A DNA stretch of 64,000 bases from NCBI GenBank assembly GCA_964536285.1, contig CAZHXG010000004.1, positions 11,121 to 75,120 of the forward strand, in the 5' to 3' direction. A model generated the notes under the pieces. It was not told the origin of the DNA and did not search any database. It worked only from the letters and a program-made list of their open reading frames with translations. Numbering within the stretch: the first letter of the stretch is position 1; each line of letters begins with the position of its first letter. A program made the position numbers and the translations under genes. This DNA comes from an uncultured Bifidobacteriaceae bacterium (GTDB taxonomy: Bacteria; Verrucomicrobiota; Verrucomicrobiia; Limisphaerales; UBA11358). Shown here one piece after another: positions 30,881 through 39,070 of the stretch.

Positions 30881-31579
30881 ATGAAACGAAAGTTGATCAA
30901 GTTGTCACAACGATACGTGACAGCGTTGCGAAAACACCTGAAGCCGGGATTACGCCGGAGCTTGCAGCCGGCGCTGGGACTGGGACGCCAGGCTGTCGTG
31001 CTCGGGCTCGAGACGCTGGAACTGGCCCGAATTCACGAGAAGGCGATCACCACACTGGAATTATCCAAAAGTAAAAACGGCTTTACCAGGCAGGCGGAGA
31101 TTTTTTTTACCGAGGCCATCACCCCGATCGTGGAGACGCATCGCGCCGCGCGGCAGAGCAAGATTCAACTGGACCGGCTGAACGAGACGCTGAACCGGCG
31201 AACGGTGGAACTGGCCGCCACGAACCGTCAGTTGCGACACGGCATCGTCCGCCGCAAGTGCGTGGAAGCCGCCCTCAAGAAAAGCGGCGAACACTACACC
31301 AGATTGTTGAAGGATTCCCTGCAACTGCAGGAAGGCTTGCGGCAACTGACGCATCAGGTGCTGGCGGCGCAGGAGGATGAACGCAAGAAGATCAGCGGCG
31401 AACTTCAGGACGAAATCGCCCAGACGTTGCTGGGCATCAATGTCCGCCTGCTCTCGTTGAAACAGGAGGCACGGAACAACACCAAGGGTCTGAAGAATGA
31501 AATCGCCAGCACACAGCGGTTGGTGGTAAAATCGGCCAAGTCCGTGCGGCGGGTCGCCCGTGAATTCGGCAGCTCATGA
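30881..31579 (+). CDS. Truncated histidine-kinase paralog: RsbU_N-like helical domain, coiled coil and first DHp helix, with phospho-acceptor His replaced by Gln and no ATPase domain
   Basis: 232 aa, colinear with residues 1-230 of the next gene. The H-box reads ISGELQDEIAQTL versus ISRELHDVIAQTL in the neighbour. The stop overlaps the next start (ATGA). Confidence 0.8.
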   Translation: MKRKLIKLSQRYVTALRKHLKPGLRRSLQPALGLGRQAVVLGLETLELARIHEKAITTLELSKSKNGFTRQAEIFFTEAITPIVETHRAARQSKIQLDRLNETLNRRTVELAATNRQLRHGIVRRKCVEAALKKSGEHYTRLLKDSLQLQEGLRQLTHQVLAAQEDERKKISGELQDEIAQTLLGINVRLLSLKQEARNNTKGLKNEIASTQRLVVKSAKSVRRVAREFGSS

Positions 31580-32742
31580 AAGCCAAATTTTTTAGACACT
31601 ATCAGTCGGCATTGCTGAAGTATCTCAAGCAATGCCCCGGCGGACGCCTGCAATCGGCGCACGGCATGGGACGGCAGGCGCTGGCCGCCGGCCTGCAGAC
31701 GCTCGACGTGGCCAAGCTCCACGAGCAGATATTGATCACCCAGGTGTTGCCGGGCCTCCCGGCCGGCAAACGCGCCACGCTCATCAAGCAGGCGGGTGCT
31801 TTCTTCACCGAGGCGATCACCCCGATCGAGAAAATTCATCGCGGCGCGCACGAGGCCGCTGTCCACCTGAACCAGATCGTCGAGATGTTGAGCCAGCGCA
31901 CAGTGGATCTGGCCGCCTCGAACCTGGAATTGGAACAGGAAATCACCCAGCGCAAGGCGGTGGAGGTGGCGCTCAAAAAAAGCGAGCACCATTACAGCCA
32001 GTTGCTGGAACAATCGGATCACCTGCAGGAGCAGTTGCGCCAATTGTCCCGCCAGATCCTCTCGACACAGGAGGAGGAGCGCCGGGAGATCAGCCGCGAA
32101 CTGCATGATGTCATCGCCCAGACTTTGACGGGCATCAACGTCCGGCTCGCGGCCTTGAAAAAGGAGGCCGCGCTCAACACCAAGGGTCTCGACCGCAACA
32201 TCGCCCGCACGCAACGGCTGGTGGAAAAATCGGTGAACATCGTGCATCAGTTCGCCCGCGAATTGCGCCCGGCAGTGCTGGACGATCTCGGCCTGATCCC
32301 CGCGCTGCATGCGTTCGTCAAAAATTTTTCCAAGCGGACGGGCGTCCACGTTCACATGAAGGTCTTTGCGGGGGTTGAACAACTGGACAACAGCAAACGC
32401 ACGGTGCTCTATCGCGTCGCGCAGGAGGCGCTGACCAATGTCGCACGCCATGCAAAAGCCGGACGGGTGGAAGTGAACATTCAGAAGCTTCACGGTGCCG
32501 CCCGCATGGAAGTCAAAGACGACGGCAAATCCTTTCAAGTGGAGCGCGTCATCCATTCCAAGGAAAATAAACGATTGGGACTGCTCGGCATGAGGGAGCG
32601 CGTCGAAATGGTCGGCGGCACTTTTTGCGTCGAGTCCGCGCCCGGCCGCGGCACCACCATCCGGGTGGAGATTCCATTCAAACACGTCCCGAAGGACGCG
32701 CTGAAAAAATCCGGTAAAAAAACCACACTAGAATGTCCATGA
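31576..32742 (+). CDS. Cytoplasmic sensor histidine kinase (RsbU_N-like N-terminus, HisKA_3, HATPase_c)
   Basis: H-box ELHDVIAQTLTGI, N-box QEALTNVARHA, G-boxes DDGKSF and GLLGMRERVEMVGG. No TM segment. Confidence 0.9.
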   Translation: MKAKFFRHYQSALLKYLKQCPGGRLQSAHGMGRQALAAGLQTLDVAKLHEQILITQVLPGLPAGKRATLIKQAGAFFTEAITPIEKIHRGAHEAAVHLNQIVEMLSQRTVDLAASNLELEQEITQRKAVEVALKKSEHHYSQLLEQSDHLQEQLRQLSRQILSTQEEERREISRELHDVIAQTLTGINVRLAALKKEAALNTKGLDRNIARTQRLVEKSVNIVHQFARELRPAVLDDLGLIPALHAFVKNFSKRTGVHVHMKVFAGVEQLDNSKRTVLYRVAQEALTNVARHAKAGRVEVNIQKLHGAARMEVKDDGKSFQVERVIHSKENKRLGLLGMRERVEMVGGTFCVESAPGRGTTIRVEIPFKHVPKDALKKSGKKTTLECP

Positions 32743-33416
32743 AACGAATCACTGTCCTGTTGGCCGAAGACCACACCATCGTGCGCGAGGGGTTCCGCAA
32801 GATGCTCGAACTTGAAGACGACTTTGAAGTCGTCGGCGAAGCGCCGGACGGGCGGCAGGCCGTCACGCTGGCCAAAAAACTCCGTCCCGACGTGATGTTG
32901 ATGGACATCGCGATGCCCCTGCTCAACGGCCTGGAAGCCACCCGCCAGATTCTCAAGGCCGTCCCCGGCACCAAAATAGTCATCCTCTCCGCGCACAATG
33001 ACGATGCGTATGTCAAAAATGCGAGCGAGTCCGGCGCGATGGGATTTCTGCTCAAACAAAACTCCTCCCACGTGGTGTGCGAGGCCATCCGGCAGGTGCA
33101 AAAGGGGAAAGCGTTTTACGGCCCGACGGTCGCCAGGCGTCTCGAACGCATCAATTCCAAATCGTCCAACGGCTCGAAACCAAACGGCAAGAAAATTTCC
33201 AAACTGACTTCGCGCGAGATGGAAGTGCTCCAGCTCATCGCCGAGGGCAAGGCCAACAAGGAGACCGCGTCGGAACTGGGCATCGGCATCAAGACCGTCG
33301 AGAAGCATCGCGAGCATCTCATGGAGAAGCTCGACATCCACGACACCGCCGGACTCACCCGCTACGCCATCAGCGCGGGCATCATCGAGAGCAGCGTCCA
33401 GTTGACCATCGTTTAG
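32733..33416 (+). CDS. NarL/LuxR-family response regulator (REC plus GerE-type HTH)
   Basis: ITVLLAEDHTIVREG...DVMLMDIAMP, and a C-terminal LTSREMEVLQLIAEGKANKETASELGIGIKTVEKHREHLM. Confidence 0.93.
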   Translation: MSMKRITVLLAEDHTIVREGFRKMLELEDDFEVVGEAPDGRQAVTLAKKLRPDVMLMDIAMPLLNGLEATRQILKAVPGTKIVILSAHNDDAYVKNASESGAMGFLLKQNSSHVVCEAIRQVQKGKAFYGPTVARRLERINSKSSNGSKPNGKKISKLTSREMEVLQLIAEGKANKETASELGIGIKTVEKHREHLMEKLDIHDTAGLTRYAISAGIIESSVQLTIV

Positions 33417-33444
33417 CAGCGCCCCGCAGTGTTGTTTCGCGCCG

Positions 33445-33750
33445 ATGTTCTTGGTCCGCCGCATGATCGTTATGAATGAAAATGGCCTCGCTTTCTGGAT
33501 GACCCTGACCGGCACCATTTGCTGGGCTGTTTGCTTTTGGTGGATGCACCGGCTGTCAACCAAGCAGAACGCGCTTTTGGACCAGCTTCGCGAACAGGGC
33601 AAACGCATCGAAAAACTTTCCAAGATCGAACACGACCTCATCAAGGAAGTGCATCCGCAGGTCGGCGAGATCAAGGAAGGGATGGACGAGATGATCGCGG
33701 CGGTGAAGGAAAATTCCAATCCCCCGGCATCCAAAAAGAAGGGGCATTAG
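33445..33750 (+). CDS. Small membrane-anchored coiled-coil protein, hypothetical
   Basis: One hydrophobic helix (AFWMTLTGTICWAVCFWWM) followed by a charged helical tail. The start codon is uncertain. Confidence 0.45.
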   Translation: MFLVRRMIVMNENGLAFWMTLTGTICWAVCFWWMHRLSTKQNALLDQLREQGKRIEKLSKIEHDLIKEVHPQVGEIKEGMDEMIAAVKENSNPPASKKKGH

Positions 33751-34028
33751 TTCCGCCAATCGCGCCGCAGGCGAGACTGCTCCGTCCTGAATTTTGCGGT
33801 CCCGCCCTGAAAATTTTTATTGACCCCGAATACTCCGATATGATTTAACAATTTCAGGTTCGGGCGGGTCGGATTATGGACTGGGTCAGGGTCACAAGTG
33901 TGATTTGGGAAAGGGCACGGGGACGCAAAGGTCTTCGCGTTTTCCCGTCCCGTGATACTTTCGCGCGGTGTCGCGCAGCGACCCGCCGGTCTGCCCCGGC
34001 CATTTTTAGCCGAGTCCCCACCCCCGGG

Positions 34029-34350
34029 CGGCGCGTCACCATCATCAGGCGGCGCGCCGTAATCATTTTTACACGCGGAAACTTCATCCGCACGCGTGTC
34101 GCAACCATTTTTACGCGCGTAAACTTCGTCCGCACGCGCGTGGCGATGATTCTTACGCAAGGAATAATCATTCCCACGCGAGTAAACTTCATTCCCACGT
34201 GCGTGGAAATCATTCCTACGCACGTAAACTTCATCGGTGCGCGCGTAAAAATCATTCCTACGCACGTAAACTTCATCGGTGCGCGCGTGGAAATCATTTT
34301 TACTCACGTAAAAACCGTTCCCACGCACGTAAAAATCATTTTTACGCACC
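34029..34350. repeat. Tandem array of about 15 units of a 21-bp repeat with a 42-bp higher-order structure
   Basis: Units start at 34050, 34071, 34092 and so on to 34344, exactly 21 bp apart. Two alternating types: ACGCACGTAAACTTCATCGGT and GCGCGCGTGGAAATCATTCCT. The stretch CCTACGCACGTAAACTTCATCGGTGCGCGCGT is repeated exactly at a 42-bp offset. Confidence 0.9.
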
Positions 34351-34447
34351 ATTTTATGGCCAAAACAGGCCGAAAATGCAGGAAATCCGCTGTTTTTCCC
34401 TCCTAAACACCGCAAACAACCAAAAAACCACAAATAACACATCAACT

Positions 34448-35146
34448 ATGGCAAAAACCGGATACATACAGCAAAGCGACATCGCCTTCTCGGCGCAGTT
34501 GCAAACCTTCAAGAACAACATCGGCAGTTACTCGGCTGCGCTCGGCGTCAGCGCCGCGCAAGTCACCGGACAGGCGGCGGATGCCGATTACTTCGAATAC
34601 GTCCTCAAATGTCAGGCCGTCATGCAGAATGGCGCGCAACAATGGACGGCGTGGAAAGACCTCACCCGCGACGGCGGCACACTGCCGCCCACCGGCATGC
34701 CCGCCGCGGCCGTGTTTCCCACCTCCGTTCCGCCCGTCGCTTCCGGCGTGGAAGTGCGGTTCCGCGCGCTGGTCAAACAGATCAAGGCCAGCGCCGACTA
34801 CAACGAAGCCGTCGGCGACGCGCTGGGCATCGAAGGCGCGCAACAGACCGCGCCCGACCTGACCGCCGTCCAGCCGCAGATTGCCGTGGAGATTTCCGGC
34901 GGTCATGTGCAAGTGGATTGGGATTGGCAGGGCAACAGCGCCTTTCTGGACATGTGCGAGATACAGGTGGATCGCGGCGACGGCAAGGGCTTCGGTGTTC
35001 TGGCCTACGACACCACGCCCGGCTACACGGACACCGCGCCGTTCCCCGCCACGCCCGCCAAGTGGACATACAAGGCCATTTATCGCGTGAACGACGCGGA
35101 AGTGGGCCAATGGAGCAATCCCGTCAGCATCGTGGTGCAGGCCTGA
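34448..35146 (+). CDS. Hypothetical protein with a C-terminal beta-sandwich (FN3-like) region
   Basis: 232 aa from the ATG at 34448 (MAKTGYIQQSD...). The codon usage looks like the host. The upstream part of the track ORF (34199-34447) is read-through of the repeat array. Confidence 0.6.
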   Translation: MAKTGYIQQSDIAFSAQLQTFKNNIGSYSAALGVSAAQVTGQAADADYFEYVLKCQAVMQNGAQQWTAWKDLTRDGGTLPPTGMPAAAVFPTSVPPVASGVEVRFRALVKQIKASADYNEAVGDALGIEGAQQTAPDLTAVQPQIAVEISGGHVQVDWDWQGNSAFLDMCEIQVDRGDGKGFGVLAYDTTPGYTDTAPFPATPAKWTYKAIYRVNDAEVGQWSNPVSIVVQA

Positions 35147-35170
35147 AATATTTCATCTGCGGATAACACA

Positions 35171-35200
35171 GCGGCCTTCGGAAACGGAGGCCGCTTTTTT
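35171..35200 (+). terminator. Rho-independent terminator
   Basis: GCGGCC-ttcggaaacgga-GGCCGC followed by TTTTTT, 25 nt after the stop at 35146. Confidence 0.75.
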
Positions 35201-35261
35201 CATTGCGCGAATTTTCAAAGAGGACGGCGTATGATTCTTCTTATCGCTCGGAGAACGCGGG

Positions 35262-36347
35262 TTAAGGATTTGATAAAAGTTTATCAAGAGAATAGTTTAG
35301 TGTCCGTAAATCAGGAGAAAGGGAAAAATCTTTACCCAATTGTAGCATTTGCTTATTAAAATTTGTTTCGCGAGAATCTACCACATAATGGAAAGAAAAA
35401 GTTAATGTGTTGGTATCGAAGGAATATAAATCTCCCCAAAACATATTTTTTAAAAATTCTGTAGCAAATAAACGAGTCGGATATCTACTACTTGCATCCA
35501 CTATGGTCATTTCAACGCTCCCCTTTATAGGAACATGATTCAATCTTACAATATATGCAATAGCACCGTTAGTGTTAGAGATAAAAAGCACATTATTAGT
35601 GTCCGCAACTGAAAAAGTTACGTTAGTTGTCTTATCGTATAAATTGTCAACCCAGTATTCTATGTCAGAAAGTTTTTTTGTTTGAGAGTCAAGATTTGTC
35701 GTTGTAGCCAATAATTGATTTTGCAGCGTCGAAATTTGTTGGAACTGGTTCGTTATGGCGGATTGCTGACTGGAAACGTTAGCTGCAGCATCTGCGATTT
35801 TATCTTGCTGTTTTGATAATCTTTTTTCTACGTCTGCAATTTGAACTTTGAATTCATCCTGTCCTTTGCTTAATATCAATTGGTTTGACGATAGTTCAAA
35901 TTGTTGCTGCGATAAGCTTTGGTGCATATCTGCAACGGTTTTCTGATAGTTATCAATTTTCTCTCCGTAGGATTGCAATGTGGAGGTTACTTGCCATAAC
36001 AAATGAGTTTTCAACAAGGCTTGCACGCCAGAAAGTCCGCAAAAACAGGCAAATACAGAAATTAGTAAAATTACAAAAGCATAGGCTAGACTATCCTTGT
36101 GCGCAAAATAAACAGCAAGAATAAGAAATGCAAAGCCAAATCCCCAACAAACAAATTGTTCAAGGCTTAAATCGTTCCAAAATTTAGATAGAAAATCGCC
36201 ATTGAGTTGAGCGATTACGAAGCATAAAACAGACAATGAGATAGCCAACGCTGAAGTTCGATATTGATTTTTTTTGACGAGCCAAAATGAAAGACTCATT
36301 AACGCCACTGTCATTAAGTAGGCCATTATATGTTCAATAAAATTCAT
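35262..36347 (-). CDS. AT-rich foreign-looking gene: N-terminal multi-TM domain, Gln/Ser-rich coiled coil, and a C-terminal beta-rich domain. Function unknown.
   Basis: 361-aa uninterrupted ORF in a segment that is visibly far more AT-rich than its flanks. About 4 hydrophobic helices, then a long region resembling heptad repeats (QQQFELSSNQLILSKGQDEFKVQIADVEKRLSKQQDKI...). Confidence 0.65.
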   Translation of the reverse strand: MNFIEHIMAYLMTVALMSLSFWLVKKNQYRTSALAISLSVLCFVIAQLNGDFLSKFWNDLSLEQFVCWGFGFAFLILAVYFAHKDSLAYAFVILLISVFACFCGLSGVQALLKTHLLWQVTSTLQSYGEKIDNYQKTVADMHQSLSQQQFELSSNQLILSKGQDEFKVQIADVEKRLSKQQDKIADAAANVSSQQSAITNQFQQISTLQNQLLATTTNLDSQTKKLSDIEYWVDNLYDKTTNVTFSVADTNNVLFISNTNGAIAYIVRLNHVPIKGSVEMTIVDASSRYPTRLFATEFLKNMFWGDLYSFDTNTLTFSFHYVVDSRETNFNKQMLQLGKDFSLSPDLRTLNYSLDKLLSNP

Positions 36348-36547
36348 GGTATGTAAATGAGGTCAACGCAGGCGTCAGGCAGCTTGGCGAGTTGTTCCGG
36401 ATTGTCGCCGCAATAAATGACGCGGGTGTCGAGAAGGGAGCTTGGCTTCAATTTGGTGGCCGTCTGCAAAGACCGGCTCGCGGAGACGGTGGCAGCGCCA
36501 CTGGCCATTGCCCTACCAGAAGATTTTCCAGCAGCCTTTTTCGCCAT
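36344..36547 (-). pseudogene. 5' remnant of a DNA (N6-adenine/N4-cytosine) methyltransferase gene, truncated after 67 codons
   Basis: RVIYCGDNPEQLAKLPDACVDLIYIP stops exactly where the catalytic D/NPPF/Y motif (DLIYIDPPF) should follow. The stop is created at the junction with the AT-rich segment. Confidence 0.7.
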
Positions 36548-36617
36548 GCGTTGAGATTAAGCAACGGATGGCGCGTCGTCAATTCATGGGCGCGGCCACT
36601 TCGGTCTAATTTAAGGG

Positions 36618-36640
36618 AATGGGTAAAACACCCCATAGCG
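36618..36640 (+). promoter_or_regulatory. Conserved stress box (variant) heading the signalling operon
   Basis: AATGGGTAAAACACCCCATAGCG. The ATG at 36671 lies 40 nt after the first C of CCCCAT. Confidence 0.5.
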
Positions 36641-36670
36641 CCCTCTAGTTGACCACCTTAACCTTATGTT

Positions 36671-36850
36671 ATGAAGAGCAGTCATGGGAATGGGAATAAG
36701 GGATTGACGCTGGGTGAATTCATCATGGTCGCATACGACACCTGGGGTAAACGACGAGCCGGACAGATTGTGCGGCTCGCCATCAACACACGCTTGGTCG
36801 AGTTCCGAGGACAACGACGCCTTGTGTTTTCCAAGTGGAGTCTCAATTAA
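36671..36850 (+). CDS. Possible 59-aa leader protein of the signalling operon, below the ORF-track cutoff
   Basis: My hand translation gives MKSSHGNGNKGLTLGEFIMVAYDTWGKRRAGQIVRLAINTRLVEFRGQRRLVFSKWSLN. It ends 12 nt before the dual-receiver gene and has the box-to-ATG spacing seen at other boxes. Confidence 0.35.
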   Translation: MKSSHGNGNKGLTLGEFIMVAYDTWGKRRAGQIVRLAINTRLVEFRGQRRLVFSKWSLN

Positions 36851-36862
36851 ATTTACGATTTT

Positions 36863-37792
36863 ATGACCAAACTCCTTAAAGCTCCTATTGAGCAAGACAT
36901 TGCCGCGCCGGCGCAGAACCAAACGAATCCGCCCCAGCGCATTCTTCTGGTGGATGATGATTTTTACGTGCGCGAACTGAATGCCGGGGTCCTGATCCGC
37001 TACGGTTACAAGGTTGACACCGCTGATGACGGCGCCGATGCATGGAAGGCTCTCAATGAAATCCGTTATGATCTTTTGATCACCGACAATAAAATGGCAA
37101 GGGTGTCGGGACTGGAGTTGATCAAGAAACTGCGTTCCGTGGACATGACGCTGCCGGTCATTCTGGCGTCGGGAACGGCGCCGACGGAGGAGTTAAAGCG
37201 GCACCCGTGGCTGAAACTTGACGCCACGTTGCCCAAACCTTTCACCGTCGCACAGTTGTTGGACACGGTTAAAAAAGTCCTGCGAACTCCGGACAGCAAC
37301 AATTCCAAACTTGATATGAAGACCAACATAATCCCGCGAATCGAAGAACCGGCCATCGCGCCGGCTCAACGACAAACGAATCCGGCGCAACGCATTCTCG
37401 TGGTGGATGACGACAGTGACGTCCGCCAATTGAGCGTTGATGTGCTGACCGGCTGCGGCTACGACGTTGCAGGCGCCAAGGACGGTGCCGACGGCTGGGA
37501 CGAACTTCAGTCCAACATCTATGACCTCGTCATCACCGACAATAAAATGCCCCGGATGACGGGCATCGAGATGCTCGAAAAAGTGCGTTCCGCGCGCATG
37601 TCGCTGCCGGTCATCATGGCCACGGGACATTTGCCCACGCATGAATTTGCCCGCAAGCCGTGGCTGACACCCGACGCCACGTTGCAGAGGCCGTTTTCGG
37701 CTGATGATTTAGTAAAAGTGGTGAAAAAAGTCCTGCGTCCGGAAGACGGCAGCACCGGTCGCAAAGAGGCGTCTTTCCCGATATATCTCTGA
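36863..37792 (+). CDS. Tandem double-receiver (REC-REC) response regulator without an output domain
   Basis: Two internally duplicated modules, PAQ.QTNP.QRIL.VDDD...DL.ITDNKM...LPVI.A.G...PWL..DATL..PF. Confidence 0.88.
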   Translation: MTKLLKAPIEQDIAAPAQNQTNPPQRILLVDDDFYVRELNAGVLIRYGYKVDTADDGADAWKALNEIRYDLLITDNKMARVSGLELIKKLRSVDMTLPVILASGTAPTEELKRHPWLKLDATLPKPFTVAQLLDTVKKVLRTPDSNNSKLDMKTNIIPRIEEPAIAPAQRQTNPAQRILVVDDDSDVRQLSVDVLTGCGYDVAGAKDGADGWDELQSNIYDLVITDNKMPRMTGIEMLEKVRSARMSLPVIMATGHLPTHEFARKPWLTPDATLQRPFSADDLVKVVKKVLRPEDGSTGRKEASFPIYL

Positions 37793-37819: not shown

Positions 37820-39070
37820 ATGATGCCGGGCAAACGGGATTCAGGTGGAAGCGGAATGAAAACCAACGATCATCAAAACGGGAACGGCAACGGGGCGCGA
37901 ACGGAGCTGACGCTCCGCGCCTCCGAACTCCGTTACCGGCGGCTGTTCGAAGCGGCCAAGGACGGCATCCTGATTCTGGACGTTGACACGGGGCGAATCG
38001 ACGATGTGAACCCCTTCCTCTTCCATCTCCTGGGTTTTTCCCGCGATGAAATGATCGGCAAAACCGTCGGCGAGCTGAGTCCGTTCAAGGACATCGAGGA
38101 GAACAAGGTCATGCTCTCGCGGTTGCAAAAGGACGGATATGTCCGCTATGAAGATTTGCCGCTGGAAACGAGAGACGGTCGCAAGATGGCCGTGGAGTTT
38201 GTCAGCAACGTGTATCCAGCCGGTGACCACGACGTGATCCAATGCAACGTTCGCAACATCACGGAGCGCAAACATGCGCAAGATGAAATACACCGCCTGA
38301 ATGCAGAACTGGAGCAACGTGTCGCCGAGCGGACGGTGCAACTGGAAGCCACCAACGCGAAACTGGAAACCTCCAACGGGGAAATGGAGTCGTTCAGTTA
38401 TTCCGTTTCCCACGATTTGCGCGCGCCGCTGCGCCATATCATGGGCTTCGTGGAACTGCTGCAAAAAGACGCAGGGCCGTCGCTTTCAGAAAAAAATCGC
38501 CGCCATCTGACGGTCATTTCCCAGTCGGCAAAACACATGGGAAATTTGATTGATGACCTGCTGTCCCTCTCGCGCATCGGACGTGCCGGAATGCAAAAGA
38601 CGGAGTGCGATCTCAATCGGTTGGTTCAGGAGGTGCTGGGCGATTTTAAAGAAGAGACGAAGGAGAGAAATATCGTCTGGGAAATCGATCCGTTGCCGGC
38701 AGTACAGGCCGACTGTTCCCTGCTGCGCATGGTGCTGGTCAATCTGATCTCCAATGCGGTGAAATTCACCGGCAAATGCGCCGAGGCCAAAATCGAAATC
38801 GGTTGCGTTCCCGGTCGGGACGACGAGACGGTGATTTTTATTCGCGACAACGGCGCGGGTTTCGATCCGCGTTATGTCCACAAACTGTTCGGCGTATTTC
38901 AACGCCTGCACAGCCAGGACGAGTTCGAGGGCACGGGCATCGGGCTGGCGAACGTCCAGCGCATCATTCTCCGGCACGGTGGCCGGGTATGGGCGGAGGG
39001 CGTGGTGGATGGCGGCGCGACATTTTACTTTTCGATTCCAAAACAAGACAAAGGCGTCAATGGACACTGA
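37820..39070 (+). CDS. PAS-domain sensor histidine kinase (HisKA, HATPase_c)
   Basis: PAS region (YRRLFEAAKDGILILD), H-box FSYSVSHDLRAPLRHI, and G-boxes DNGAGF and GTGIGLANV. An alternative start lies at 37856. Confidence 0.92.
   Translation: MMPGKRDSGGSGMKTNDHQNGNGNGARTELTLRASELRYRRLFEAAKDGILILDVDTGRIDDVNPFLFHLLGFSRDEMIGKTVGELSPFKDIEENKVMLSRLQKDGYVRYEDLPLETRDGRKMAVEFVSNVYPAGDHDVIQCNVRNITERKHAQDEIHRLNAELEQRVAERTVQLEATNAKLETSNGEMESFSYSVSHDLRAPLRHIMGFVELLQKDAGPSLSEKNRRHLTVISQSAKHMGNLIDDLLSLSRIGRAGMQKTECDLNRLVQEVLGDFKEETKERNIVWEIDPLPAVQADCSLLRMVLVNLISNAVKFTGKCAEAKIEIGCVPGRDDETVIFIRDNGAGFDPRYVHKLFGVFQRLHSQDEFEGTGIGLANVQRIILRHGGRVWAEGVVDGGATFYFSIPKQDKGVNGH

What the first reader, a model, noticed from the sequence alone, without database searches (positions are those of the whole stretch)
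34029..34350. Phase-exact 21-bp tandem array (about 15 units, two alternating subtypes) upstream of an orphan gene, open in several reading frames on both strands
Units begin every 21 bp from about 34050 to 34344 with no indels. They alternate between ACGCACGTAAACTTCATCGGT-like and GCGCGCGTGGAAATCATTCCT-like types, giving a 42-bp higher-order repeat that contains a 32-nt exact duplicate.

21 bp is two helical turns, so every unit presents the same face of the DNA. That geometry matches iterons or a cooperative protein-binding array. The array ends about 100 nt before the ATG at 34448.

Because 21 is a multiple of 3, several frames stay open. The minus strand would read a heptad such as VRRNDFY/ARTDEVY. 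The plus frame is continuous with the downstream gene.

Differences between units are mostly non-synonymous in those frames (RNDFY / KNDFH / RNDFH). I therefore favour a non-coding array, but a repeat protein or a variable N-terminal extension is not excluded. It is not a CRISPR array, because there are no unique spacers.
Basis: seen in the sequence. Interest (0 to 1): 0.7.

Follow-up and report, generated by a model that had tools for sequence, protein, structure and literature searches.

The report
Phased 21-bp regulator-binding array before gene
A non-coding row of about fifteen 21-base repeats sits in front of an uncharacterised gene, the same kind of row precedes that gene's relatives across a whole bacterial phylum, and it most likely serves as a long landing strip for a LuxR-type regulatory protein.

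Summary
Window 34029-34349 holds 15 units of exactly 21 bp plus a degenerate 16th, with no indels (lag-21 identity 0.58, z = 12.8). Nothing else like it occurs in the 64 kb.

It is not a local oddity. The downstream gene is not an orphan: it belongs to a family of about 2000 clusters in Verrucomicrobiota. In 54 of 55 relatives with enough upstream DNA, a 21-bp array of 5-21 units lies in the same place (22 bp in Haloferula). This holds down to 33% protein identity and in unrelated gene neighbourhoods.

Units share a deep consensus (CGCRCG...GAA-N3-TTC), are dyad-symmetric, and keep register over six or more units.

Coding is excluded. No reading frame is conserved, some units are 22 bp, and the protein N-terminus is fixed. 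Iterons are not supported: no Rep gene, no DnaA boxes, no plasmid or phage link.

In 26 of 52 loci a LuxR/GerE-type HTH gene lies directly upstream on the same strand. In the window this is a NarL-type response regulator with its kinase.

Best model: regulator dimers bind every two helical turns, as BvgA does, but with far more sites. A role as transcribed RNA is not excluded. One independent assembly lacks exactly 42 bp, so copy number varies.

The parts
34029..34349 (+). Tandem array: 15 units of exactly 21 bp plus the start of a degenerate 16th. Each unit has a core ACGCRCGT followed by a 13-bp segment (AAAAATCATTTTT or GGAAATCATTCCT, which is palindromic; or AAACTTCATCGGT). There is a 42-bp higher order and a 40-nt exact duplicate at 34207 and 34249. 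Unit polarity is fixed relative to the gene.
   Evidence: Homologous arrays in 54 relatives.
34350..34447 (+). Spacer between the array and the start codon; presumed core promoter plus leader. It holds a degenerate last unit; a small palindrome GGCC-AAAACA-GGCC (34358-34371), which the closest relatives also carry with changed arms; phased A-runs; a T-run (34393-34397); TAAAC (34404-34408); then a C/A-rich, G-poor leader with no Shine-Dalgarno-like sequence. No sigma-70 consensus promoter was found.
   Evidence: Leader GC skew -0.37 across loci.
34448..35146 (+). Gene for a 232-aa acidic protein (pI 4.5). It has an N-terminal helical hairpin, a Pro-rich linker and a C-terminal FN3-like beta-sandwich. 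No Pfam, NCBIfam, PHROG or PDB sequence match. It belongs to a large Verrucomicrobiota family, and every array found is tied to a member of it.
35170..35195 (+). Intrinsic-terminator-like hairpin (11 pairs, 8 of them G-C) followed by a T-run. The gene therefore looks monocistronic.
32733..33416 (+). NarL/FixJ-type response regulator (receiver domain plus GerE/LuxR HTH). This is the candidate protein that binds the array.
   Evidence: Pfam. Synteny of LuxR-type HTH genes with arrays in 26 of 52 loci. Same kinase-regulator-array-gene order in L077.
31576..32742 (+). HisKA_3/HATPase_c histidine kinase, the presumed partner of the response regulator. A related HisKA_3-like ORF lies at 30881-31579.
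33445..33750 (+). 101-aa predicted small membrane protein between the regulator gene and the array. No family assignment; its role in the module is unknown.
36953..36973 (-). Single isolated unit-like site, GCGCACGTAAAAATCATCATC (PWM score 22.6, within the range of true units). It lies inside the 5' part of the double-receiver gene 36863-37792. It may be a lone operator or a chance match.

Best explanation
The array is a non-coding, DNA-level operator array, an enhancer-like upstream region, for the gene at 34448.

**Proposed mechanism**
- Each 21-bp unit (two helical turns) is one dyad-symmetric site. It has a CGCRCG core and a GAA-N3-TTC inverted repeat.
- Each site binds a head-to-head dimer of a LuxR/NarL-family helix-turn-helix regulator.
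- In the window this regulator is most likely the response regulator at 32733-33416, controlled by the kinase at 31576-32742. In many relatives it is a small stand-alone GerE-type protein encoded directly upstream.
- Because the sites are exactly in phase, the dimers line up on one face of the DNA and bind cooperatively.
- The resulting nucleoprotein filament, 100-450 bp long, ends next to an activator-dependent core promoter in the roughly 100 bp before the ATG. It switches the gene on (or off) in a steep, threshold-like way.
- Gain or loss of units in 21- or 42-bp steps keeps the phase and may tune the threshold.

**Shown**: the array, its phylum-wide conservation with the gene, its strict register, its dyad symmetry, the shared unit consensus, its non-coding nature, the synteny with LuxR-type genes, and one 42-bp copy-number variant.

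**Inferred**: that the LuxR-type protein binds the units, that binding is cooperative, where the promoter lies, and whether regulation is positive or negative.
For: 1. **Conserved with the gene.** Arrays of period 21 (lags 21, 42 and 63 are the top lags) precede 54 of 55 family genes that have at least 300 nt of upstream DNA. This holds in unrelated neighbourhoods and down to 33% protein identity. In 684 kb of held DNA, every array lies 5' of a family gene, except the pattern-fetched L088.
2. **Register is under selection.** Units diverge by about 38% yet show no indels. Lag 126 is exact in 22 of 39 arrays and is 127 in 10 of 39. Units are 21 or 22 bp and almost never shorter. Haloferula uses 22 bp throughout. 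That equals two helical turns.
3. **Register continues to the promoter side.** It runs on to the promoter-proximal GCAGT[A/T] motif. The offset modulo 21 is 0-7 in 19 of 19 loci and 0-4 in 16 of 19.
4. **Dyad symmetry.** Complementarity at the best axis is 0.45-0.59 against about 0.25 expected.
5. **Shared unit consensus.** The phylum-wide consensus is C-G-C-R-C-G-g-n-n-g-a-A-n-C-n-T-T-C, carrying 4.87 bits against 1.34 +/- 0.09 in column-permuted controls. Sequence is conserved more than pairing: only 47% of arm positions are complementary. That suits a protein site better than a hairpin.
6. **Synteny with a regulator.** A GerE/LuxR HTH ORF lies on the same strand directly upstream of the array in 26 of 52 loci and nowhere else within +/-4 kb. 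Pfam PF00196 was confirmed in 10 of 10 tested. Paralogous modules within one genome each carry their own HTH gene. The window and L077 have NarL-type regulators with HisKA_3 kinases.
7. **Precedent.** BvgA, of the same HTH family, binds as head-to-head dimers spaced 22 bp on one face of the DNA. There are three dimers at Pfha and six at Pptx, and the last abuts the -35 element (PMC7250471).
8. **No consensus promoter.** No sigma-70 consensus promoter lies in 33400-35400, as expected for an activator-dependent promoter.
9. **The gene product is an unlikely binder.** It is acidic (pI 4.46) and has an FN3-type fold, so it is unlikely to bind the array itself.
Against: - No binding data exist, and the transcription start is unknown.
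- Half of the loci have no LuxR-type gene nearby. This includes the window's closest relative with a different neighbourhood.
- Co-variation between the HTH domain and the array sequence is weak (Mantel r = 0.19, p = 0.03) and absent for the recognition helix.
- Units have a conserved polarity that a purely palindromic site does not need. The forward orientation fits better in 48 of 53 arrays. CGCACG occurs 68 times against 17 for CGTGCG. Sense-strand GC skew is -0.18 and negative in 94% of arrays.
- In many loci the array starts within about 30 nt of the HTH gene's stop codon, so at least part of it is probably transcribed.
- A look-alike 21-bp array in a Bacteroidota-like contig lies between convergent genes, where no promoter is expected.
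- Arrays of 10-20 sites are far beyond any characterised LuxR-family promoter.
Confidence: 0.5

Rival explanations
1. The array is transcribed and acts at the RNA level, either as a long 5' leader of the 232-aa gene or as the spacer between the upstream HTH gene and that gene. It would form a row of short imperfect hairpins or repeated protein-binding motifs that control mRNA stability, processing, termination or translation.
For: - Unit polarity and G depletion on the sense strand are conserved. The leader shows the same depletion but the 250 nt upstream of the array do not (GC skew -0.05, -0.18 and -0.37 for upstream, array and leader).
- Both strands fold better than shuffles (z = -7.5 and -6.0).
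- There is a small excess of compensatory arm changes within arrays (177 against 144 +/- 9).
- The array abuts the stop codon of a same-strand upstream gene in many loci.
- Four relatives carry a GGCC-UUCG-GGCC-type hairpin insertion between array and leader. This suggests that region is RNA.
- The L088 look-alike sits in a 3' intergenic region.
Against: - RNA gives no reason for a period locked at 21-22 nt with no indels, or for a register that runs on to a promoter-proximal motif.
- Only about 47% of arm positions pair.
- G:U-compatible mismatches follow base composition and favour neither strand.
- No Rfam family matches at E <= 1.
- Sequence motifs are conserved more than pairing.
- ATG depletion on the sense strand is no stronger than the general G depletion.
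Confidence: 0.2
2. The array is architectural DNA with no dedicated regulator. Any 21-bp periodic sequence adds its small bends in phase, so the array would form a curved or superhelical upstream element. This would wrap RNA polymerase or a nucleoid protein and boost, or insulate, a strong promoter.
For: - The period is exactly two helical turns across the phylum.
- Phased A-runs follow the array in the window's clade.
- The unit sequence varies strongly between lineages while the period does not.
- The leader looks like that of a highly expressed gene.
- Half of the loci lack an adjacent regulator.
Against: - Units share a specific consensus and dyad symmetry across the phylum, which curvature alone does not require.
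- GC-rich arrays lack A-tracts.
- The strong synteny with LuxR-type HTH genes would be left unexplained.
Confidence: 0.12
3. The array is a neutral or selfish minisatellite (VNTR) that arose once next to this gene. It persists through unequal crossing-over and, at most, causes stochastic variation in expression.
For: - An independent assembly differs by exactly 42 bp in an otherwise identical 720-nt upstream region.
- The window carries a 40-nt exact duplicate.
- Unit number ranges from 5 to 21 between relatives.
- Assemblies often break inside the array.
- Arrays are fused to truncated gene copies in L056, L059 and L070.
Against: - The array is kept at the same place in 54 of 55 loci across a phylum, including paralogues.
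- It keeps strict register, dyad symmetry and a conserved consensus despite about 38% divergence between units. That argues for purifying selection.
- Most units are too diverged for slipped-strand mispairing.
Confidence: 0.08
4. The array is a set of iterons (a replication origin) or a partition centromere of a mobile element.
For: Directly repeated units of about 21 bp in helical phase resemble iterons and the 20-bp repeats of some plasmid centromeres. That resemblance rests on general knowledge.
Against: - No Rep, ParA, ParB or ParR-like gene is in the module.
- DnaA-box matches are at chance level and none lies at the array.
- The gene family has no match in 72,556 plasmids or 50,697 phages.
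- The module sits in ordinary chromosomal neighbourhoods, in several copies per genome.
Confidence: 0.03
5. The array encodes a heptad-repeat protein or an N-terminal extension of the downstream protein.
For: Several frames are open in the window. Gene callers often predict ORFs across the arrays and N-terminally extended models.
Against: - No frame, numbered from the unit core, is open in all arrays. The best is open in 38 of 54. Three arrays are closed in all six frames. The window's open frames differ from those of relatives.
- Multi-frame openness (3.1 frames against 1.2 in shuffles) is what a stop-free periodic unit gives by itself.
- The 22-bp units in Haloferula and scattered elsewhere break any frame.
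- The protein start M-[A/P]-K is conserved.
- The array ORFs have no family hits.
Confidence: 0.02

Closest known systems
BvgA-activated promoters of Bordetella (Pfha, Pptx, Pfim3); BvgA is a NarL/FixJ (LuxR-type HTH) response regulator
   Same: - Head-to-head dimers sit on dyad-symmetric sites.
- Centre-to-centre spacing is two helical turns (22 bp), so all dimers lie on one face of the DNA.
- Several adjacent sites of mixed strength act cooperatively, and the array ends next to the core promoter.
- Deleting one 22-bp step keeps the phasing (PMC7250471).
- The window has a regulator of the same family with its kinase directly upstream.
   Different: - BvgA promoters have 3-6 sites, and these are not recognisable tandem repeats. 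Here there are 5-21 units of an evident tandem repeat that evolves by duplication.
- The period here is 21 bp rather than 22 in nearly all lineages.
- The regulator is often a small stand-alone HTH protein without a receiver domain.
- Binding has not been shown.
Plasmid iterons (Rep-binding direct repeats of about 17-22 bp at replication origins)
   Same: Directly repeated units of about 21 bp in helical phase that bind a protein cooperatively (general knowledge).
   Different: There is no Rep gene, no DnaA boxes or AT-rich unwinding element, and no plasmid or phage context. The array is tied to a chromosomal gene family, and its units are dyad-symmetric.
ARG-box operators (ArgR): 18-bp palindromes separated by 3 bp, so 21 bp centre to centre. 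This is recalled from the literature and was not checked here.
   Same: An 18-bp palindrome plus 3 bp gives a 21-bp repeat of dyad sites on one DNA face. Some relatives show exactly this pattern, for example L050 with TTCCAGCG-CA-CGCTGGAA plus 3 nt.
   Different: ARG operators have two boxes, rarely more. The protein family and consensus are different, and no ArgR-type gene is linked here.
REP/BIME palindromic-unit arrays of enterobacteria (recalled from the literature)
   Same: Mosaic arrays of imperfect palindromes with alternating subtypes in intergenic DNA. The L088 look-alike lies 3' of convergent genes, as BIMEs do.
   Different: BIMEs are dispersed in hundreds of copies and lie mostly 3' of genes. 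Here every array found in 684 kb sits 5' of one gene family, and the period is fixed at 21 bp.

Membership tests
Phased LuxR/NarL-family operator array (BvgA-type promoter architecture) | Dyad-symmetric (inverted half-site) binding sites | tested here: met
   Complementarity at the best axis is 0.45-0.59 against about 0.25 expected in nearly all arrays. The consensus contains GAA-N3-TTC, and the profile correlates with its own reverse complement at r = 0.73.
Phased LuxR/NarL-family operator array (BvgA-type promoter architecture) | Site centres spaced two helical turns apart (21-22 bp), so all dimers lie on one face | tested here: met
   Period 21 with 0% indels in the window. Period 21 in 52 of 54 arrays and 22 in two of them, L054 (Haloferula) and L058. 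Register is kept over six or more units.
Phased LuxR/NarL-family operator array (BvgA-type promoter architecture) | A cognate LuxR/GerE-type HTH regulator | tested here: inconclusive
   A same-strand GerE-domain gene lies directly upstream in 26 of 52 loci, and a NarL-type regulator with kinase in the window and L077. It is absent near the other half. The co-variation test is weak.
Phased LuxR/NarL-family operator array (BvgA-type promoter architecture) | The regulator physically binds the units, cooperatively | not testable with these tools
   This needs EMSA, footprinting or DAP-seq.
Phased LuxR/NarL-family operator array (BvgA-type promoter architecture) | The promoter-proximal site abuts the core promoter | tested here: inconclusive
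   The array ends about 100 nt before the ATG, and its register continues to a conserved GCAGT[A/T] motif. No recognisable -35 or -10 element was found, and the transcription start is unknown.
Iterons / plasmid replication origin | Adjacent initiator (Rep) gene | tested here: not met
   The neighbours are a kinase, a response regulator, a small membrane protein and the FN3-type protein. None has a Rep family hit.
Iterons / plasmid replication origin | DnaA boxes or an AT-rich unwinding element next to the repeats | tested here: not met
   Ten near-matches to TTATCCACA occur in 64 kb against 7.4 expected, and none lies at the array. The flanks have 52-59% G+C.
Iterons / plasmid replication origin | Located on a plasmid, phage or other replicon | tested here: not met
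   The linked gene has no tblastn match in the plasmid or phage collections. Relatives lie on contigs of up to 2.46 Mb.
CRISPR array | Repeats separated by unique spacers | tested here: not met
   Units are head to tail with no spacers.
Protein-coding heptad repeat | One reading frame conserved and open in relatives | tested here: not met
   The best frame is open in only 38 of 54 arrays, and three arrays are closed in all six frames. Some units are 22 bp.
Known structured RNA family (Rfam) | Match to a curated covariance model | tested here: not met
   No match at E <= 1 in 31000-37000 on either strand.
Structured RNA in general | Base pairs kept through compensatory changes | tested here: inconclusive
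   The excess is small (both-sides-changed and still complementary: 177 against 144 +/- 9), only 47% of arm positions pair, and there is no G:U strand signal.
VNTR / contingency locus | Unit number differs between near-identical strains | tested here: met
   L083 lacks exactly 42 bp in an otherwise identical 720-nt upstream region. Only one such variant was seen, and an assembly artefact cannot be fully excluded.
REP/BIME-type dispersed palindromic repeats | Many dispersed copies in the genome, mostly 3' of genes | tested here: not met
   The window has one array. In 684 kb of related DNA, every array is 5' of a family gene.

The most novel reading that the evidence does not exclude
Verrucomicrobiota carry a self-contained, duplicating three-part module: a small LuxR-type HTH regulator gene, a phased tandem array of 5-21 dyad operators, and a gene for an acidic FN3-domain protein. 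In this module the regulator would polymerise into a filament along 100-450 bp of DNA. That would be by far the longest phased operator array known for a bacterial transcription factor. Its length would evolve by gain and loss of tandem repeats and so set the switching threshold.
Probability: 0.35. Interest if true: 0.75.

Novelty: new variant of a known kind. Interest (0 to 1): 0.6.

Why it matters
- **A new scale of operator array.** It would be a natural example of a bacterial promoter controlled through a very long, exactly phased array of regulator sites. That makes it a simple system for studying cooperative filament-like binding, ultrasensitive switching, and tuning of gene expression by repeat number.
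- **A handle on an unstudied gene family.** It links a large, unannotated and probably highly expressed protein family (about 2000 clusters) of soil, peat and freshwater Verrucomicrobiota to a candidate regulator.
- **An annotation fix.** The arrays are stop-free in several frames. They generate spurious ORFs and falsely extended gene models in many public assemblies, and they break short-read assemblies.

Tried and rejected
- **Rfam scan of 31-37 kb:** nothing.
- **Sigma-70 promoter scan:** nothing. The terminator scan gave only the gene's own terminator and a weak site at 33985-34000.
- **Family searches of the 232-aa protein** (Pfam, NCBIfam, PHROGs, PDB by sequence): nothing. The fold search gave only generic FN3 matches.
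- **G:U versus A:C mismatch test for a transcribed strand:** mismatches simply follow base composition.
- **Upstream-AUG avoidance:** ATG depletion equals the general G depletion.
- **Mantel test of HTH against array co-variation:** weak to null.
- **Sigma-54 promoter, by eye:** the GG/GC spacing is one base short, so it was rejected.
- **Argument from L089, withdrawn.** I first argued that the array fills a divergent intergenic region, so the promoter must lie downstream of it. Pfam then showed that the neighbouring ORF's start is probably over-called.
- **Metagenome pattern scan for further arrays:** the pattern was too strict and returned one contig, L088. It turned out to be a look-alike in a different context.
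- **First PWM-like IUPAC pattern:** mis-specified and uninformative.
- **The 232-aa protein as the binder of its own array:** judged unlikely because it is acidic and FN3-like.

Full report
**1. The observation**

The array is real.
- Tandem Repeats Finder reports overlapping rows of period 21, 42, 63 and 84 over 34027-34349, all with 0% indels.
- Written in a 21-bp register, the sequence gives 15 full units from 34029 to 34343 and a degenerate 16th.
- The unit consensus is ACGCGCGTAAAAATCATTCCT, and mean pairwise identity between units is 62%.
- Lag-21 identity is 0.58 against 0.25 +/- 0.03 in shuffles (z = 12.8). Lag 42 gives 0.72. No other 300-nt stretch of the window exceeds 0.38.

Three details need correcting.
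- The longest exact duplicate is 40 nt (34207 and 34249), not 32.
- The A/B alternation is imperfect.
- The downstream gene is far from an orphan.

**2. The gene**

ORF 34448-35146 encodes a 232-aa protein and is followed by a good terminator at 35170-35195.
- It has no Pfam, NCBIfam, PHROG or PDB sequence match.
- It has 881 close homologues, almost all 230-232 aa, named only as Verrucomicrobia or Limisphaerales hypothetical proteins.
- A full profile search finds 1978 clusters at 50% identity.
- The N-terminus M-[A/P]-K is conserved, so the open frame that runs from the array into the gene is not an extension of the protein.
- AlphaFold (pLDDT 84) predicts a helical hairpin (residues 11-73), a Pro-rich linker and a C-terminal beta-sandwich. 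The sandwich matches FN3 domains.
- The protein is acidic (pI 4.46), so it is an unlikely nucleic-acid binder.

**3. The key comparative result**

Homologues sit in quite different neighbourhoods: polysaccharide genes, MdoG, gcvP, a topoisomerase gene, two-component systems. They still carry a 21-bp periodic array in the same position, followed by about 100 nt and a C/A-rich leader.

A scan of one genome per species returned 73 loci. These cover Limisphaerales, Chthoniobacterales, 'Spartobacteria', Luteolibacter, Brevifollis and the cultured Haloferula luteola.
- In 54 of 55 loci with at least 300 nt upstream, an array of 4.7-20.7 units is detected. Lags 21, 42 and 63 are the top autocorrelation lags, down to 33% protein identity.
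- Haloferula uses 22 bp throughout.
- Register is kept over long distances. Lag 126 is exact in 22 of 39 arrays and is 127 in 10. Units are therefore 21 bp, sometimes 22, and almost never shorter.
- In 684 kb of held DNA, every such array lies 5' of a family gene, apart from one contig fetched by pattern.

**4. What the units look like**

Unit sequences differ greatly between lineages. After rotation they still share a consensus, C-G-C-R-C-G-g-n-n-g-a-A-n-C-n-T-T-C-c-n-c, carrying 4.87 bits against 1.34 +/- 0.09 in column-permuted controls.
- They are dyad-symmetric, with 0.45-0.59 complementarity at the best axis against about 0.25 expected.
- Some units are near-perfect 18-bp palindromes plus 3 nt, for example L050.
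- Sequence is conserved more than pairing. Only 47% of arm positions are complementary, against 44% when arms are shuffled among units. Compensatory changes are only slightly enriched.
- Units also have a polarity relative to the gene. The forward orientation fits better in 48 of 53 arrays. CGCACG occurs 68 times against 17 for CGTGCG. Sense-strand GC skew is -0.18.

**5. Coding is excluded**
- Numbered from the unit core, no frame is open in all arrays. The best is open in 38 of 54, and three arrays are closed in all six frames.
- The window's open frames are not those open in relatives.
- A stop-free periodic unit explains the multi-frame openness by itself: 3.1 open frames per array against 1.2 in shuffles.
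- The 22-bp units break any frame.
- Gene callers nevertheless predict ORFs of about 160-200 aa over the arrays, and extended versions of the real gene.

**6. Iterons, centromere and CRISPR are not supported**
- There is no Rep or Par gene.
- DnaA-box matches are at chance level.
- The gene family has no match in plasmid or phage collections.
- The contexts are chromosomal, with up to three module copies per genome.
- The array has no spacers.

**7. A conserved neighbour**

A jackhmmer search with the window regulator's HTH domain against all ORFs of the loci found a LuxR/GerE-type ORF in 26 of 52 loci.
- It is always on the gene's strand and always directly upstream of the array, ending 308-740 nt before the ATG. 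No such ORF occurs anywhere else within +/-4 kb.
- Pfam confirmed GerE (PF00196) in 10 of 10 tested.
- Most are small stand-alone HTH proteins, some with a C-terminal coiled coil.
- Paralogous modules in one genome each have their own HTH gene.
- In the window and in L077 the neighbour is a NarL-type response regulator preceded by a HisKA_3 kinase. The two regulators are 29% identical.
- The other loci have unrelated neighbours.

**8. Mechanism proposed**

LuxR/NarL-family regulators bind inverted half-sites as head-to-head dimers. For BvgA, dimers sit every 22 bp, two helical turns apart, all on one face of the DNA. There are three at Pfha and six at Pptx, the last abuts the -35 element, and 22-bp deletions preserve the phasing (PMC7250471).

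The array here has that geometry, dyad units with a GAA..TTC core, and a same-family regulator next door. I therefore read it as a long phased operator array on which regulator dimers bind cooperatively to control an activator-dependent promoter in the last 100 bp or so.

Two further results fit this reading.
- No sigma-70 consensus promoter is present.
- The array register continues to a conserved GCAGT[A/T] motif 32-44 nt before the ATG.

**9. What speaks against it, and the main rival**
- Binding is untested and the transcription start is unknown.
- Half of the loci lack a nearby regulator.
- Co-variation of the HTH domain with the array sequence is weak.
- Unit polarity and G depletion are shared with the leader but not with DNA upstream of the array.
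- The array abuts the stop codon of the upstream HTH gene in many loci.
- Four relatives carry a UUCG-type hairpin insertion just downstream of the array.

These points keep an RNA-level role alive, as a 5' leader or an intercistronic element. Against that role:
- RNA gives no reason for the locked 21-22-nt period or the register to the promoter side.
- Pairing is poor.
- There is no G:U strand signal.
- No Rfam family matches.

A look-alike array lies between convergent genes in a Bacteroidota-like contig (14 x CAGACGCGCGTCTGGAACTTT). It shows that similar arrays can exist where no promoter is expected.

**10. Copy number**
- An independent assembly (L083) is identical over the 720 nt upstream of the ATG except for a clean 42-bp deletion of one of the duplicated double units. 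Two other assemblies break inside the array.
- The closest relative from a different neighbourhood has only about 6 units, against 15 in the window.
- Changes in 21- or 42-bp steps keep the helical phase.

**11. Verdict**

This is a genuine, non-coding cis-element that is conserved across a phylum and tied to one uncharacterised gene family. It is best explained as a BvgA-like phased operator array for LuxR-family regulators, on an unprecedented scale (confidence about 0.5). An RNA-level function is the main alternative (about 0.2).

Noticed in passing
window 35262-36347 (minus strand): A 361-aa ORF lies in a sharp low-G+C island (33-39% against 55-60% around it). It has N-terminal membrane segments and a long coiled coil, with only weak SMC- or Rad50-like coiled-coil hits. 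It looks horizontally acquired, and it is absent from relatives that share the upstream module in other contexts.
   Followed up: partly
window 36953-36973 (minus strand): A single sequence, GCGCACGTAAAAATCATCATC, scores like a true array unit (PWM 22.6; the next best outside the array scores 16). It lies about 90 nt inside the double-receiver gene 36863-37792. It may be a lone operator for the same regulator, or chance.
   Followed up: partly
L088 570-1011: A Bacteroidota-like metagenome contig carries 14 tandem 21-bp units, CAGACGCGCGTCTGGAACTTT, followed by a strong hairpin. The array lies between a convergent clpC-like gene and a gene with a T9SS-type C-terminal tail. No 232-aa family gene is present. 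This is a look-alike array in a non-promoter context.
   Followed up: partly
L015, L038, L077, L071: about 60-120 nt before the ATG: An inserted structured element lies between array and leader: GGCCTTCGGCC (a UUCG-type tetraloop hairpin) plus CCCTCTCCCATC..GATGGGAGAGGG, nested in CACCC..GGGTG. It is conserved in four MAGs and suggests that this stretch is transcribed.
   Followed up: no
L015, L040, L069, L071: 50-250 nt upstream of their arrays: Further short-unit tandem repeats lie just upstream of the 21-bp arrays: CGCCACCG x8, CGCAACCG x10, ACGCGGC x8, and a 14-bp unit GGCTCGCCGTCCTC x5.
   Followed up: no
L056, L059, L070 (for example L070 3813-4025): In these loci the array is fused directly to 5'-truncated copies of the family gene, at residues 48, 22 and 126. 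In L070 an ORF reads through the array into the FN3 domain. These are probably deletion pseudogenes or assembly chimeras.
   Followed up: partly
window 33876-34406 (+) and 33747-34445 (-); L007 3461-3997; L005 529-1122; proteins P0012, P0036, P0096, P0122: Public gene calls include spurious ORFs of 160-200 aa across the arrays. They also include family proteins extended at the N-terminus by 16-110 residues. Both arise because the arrays are stop-free in several frames.
   Followed up: yes
window 34358-34371, and the same position in L001, L031, L071, L089: A small palindrome lies directly after the array, and its arm sequences change between relatives: GGCC..GGCC, TGGC..GCCA, ATGaCC..GGcCAT, ATGGCCG..CGGCCAT. 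It could be a second operator or a 5'-terminal mRNA hairpin.
   Followed up: no
L006-L009 5038-8699; L089 1926-4085: In some relatives the family gene is followed by a 700-719-aa protein (Big_7, FlgD_ig and DUF6345 in L089) and by tandem paralogues of about 200 aa that carry a PEP-CTERM motif. This hints at a link to the cell surface or to exopolysaccharide.
   Followed up: partly
window 38343-38388: A second 21-bp repeat of 2.2 copies (TRF score 57) lies inside the PAS histidine-kinase gene 37820-39070. It is unrelated in sequence to the array and is coding.
   Followed up: no
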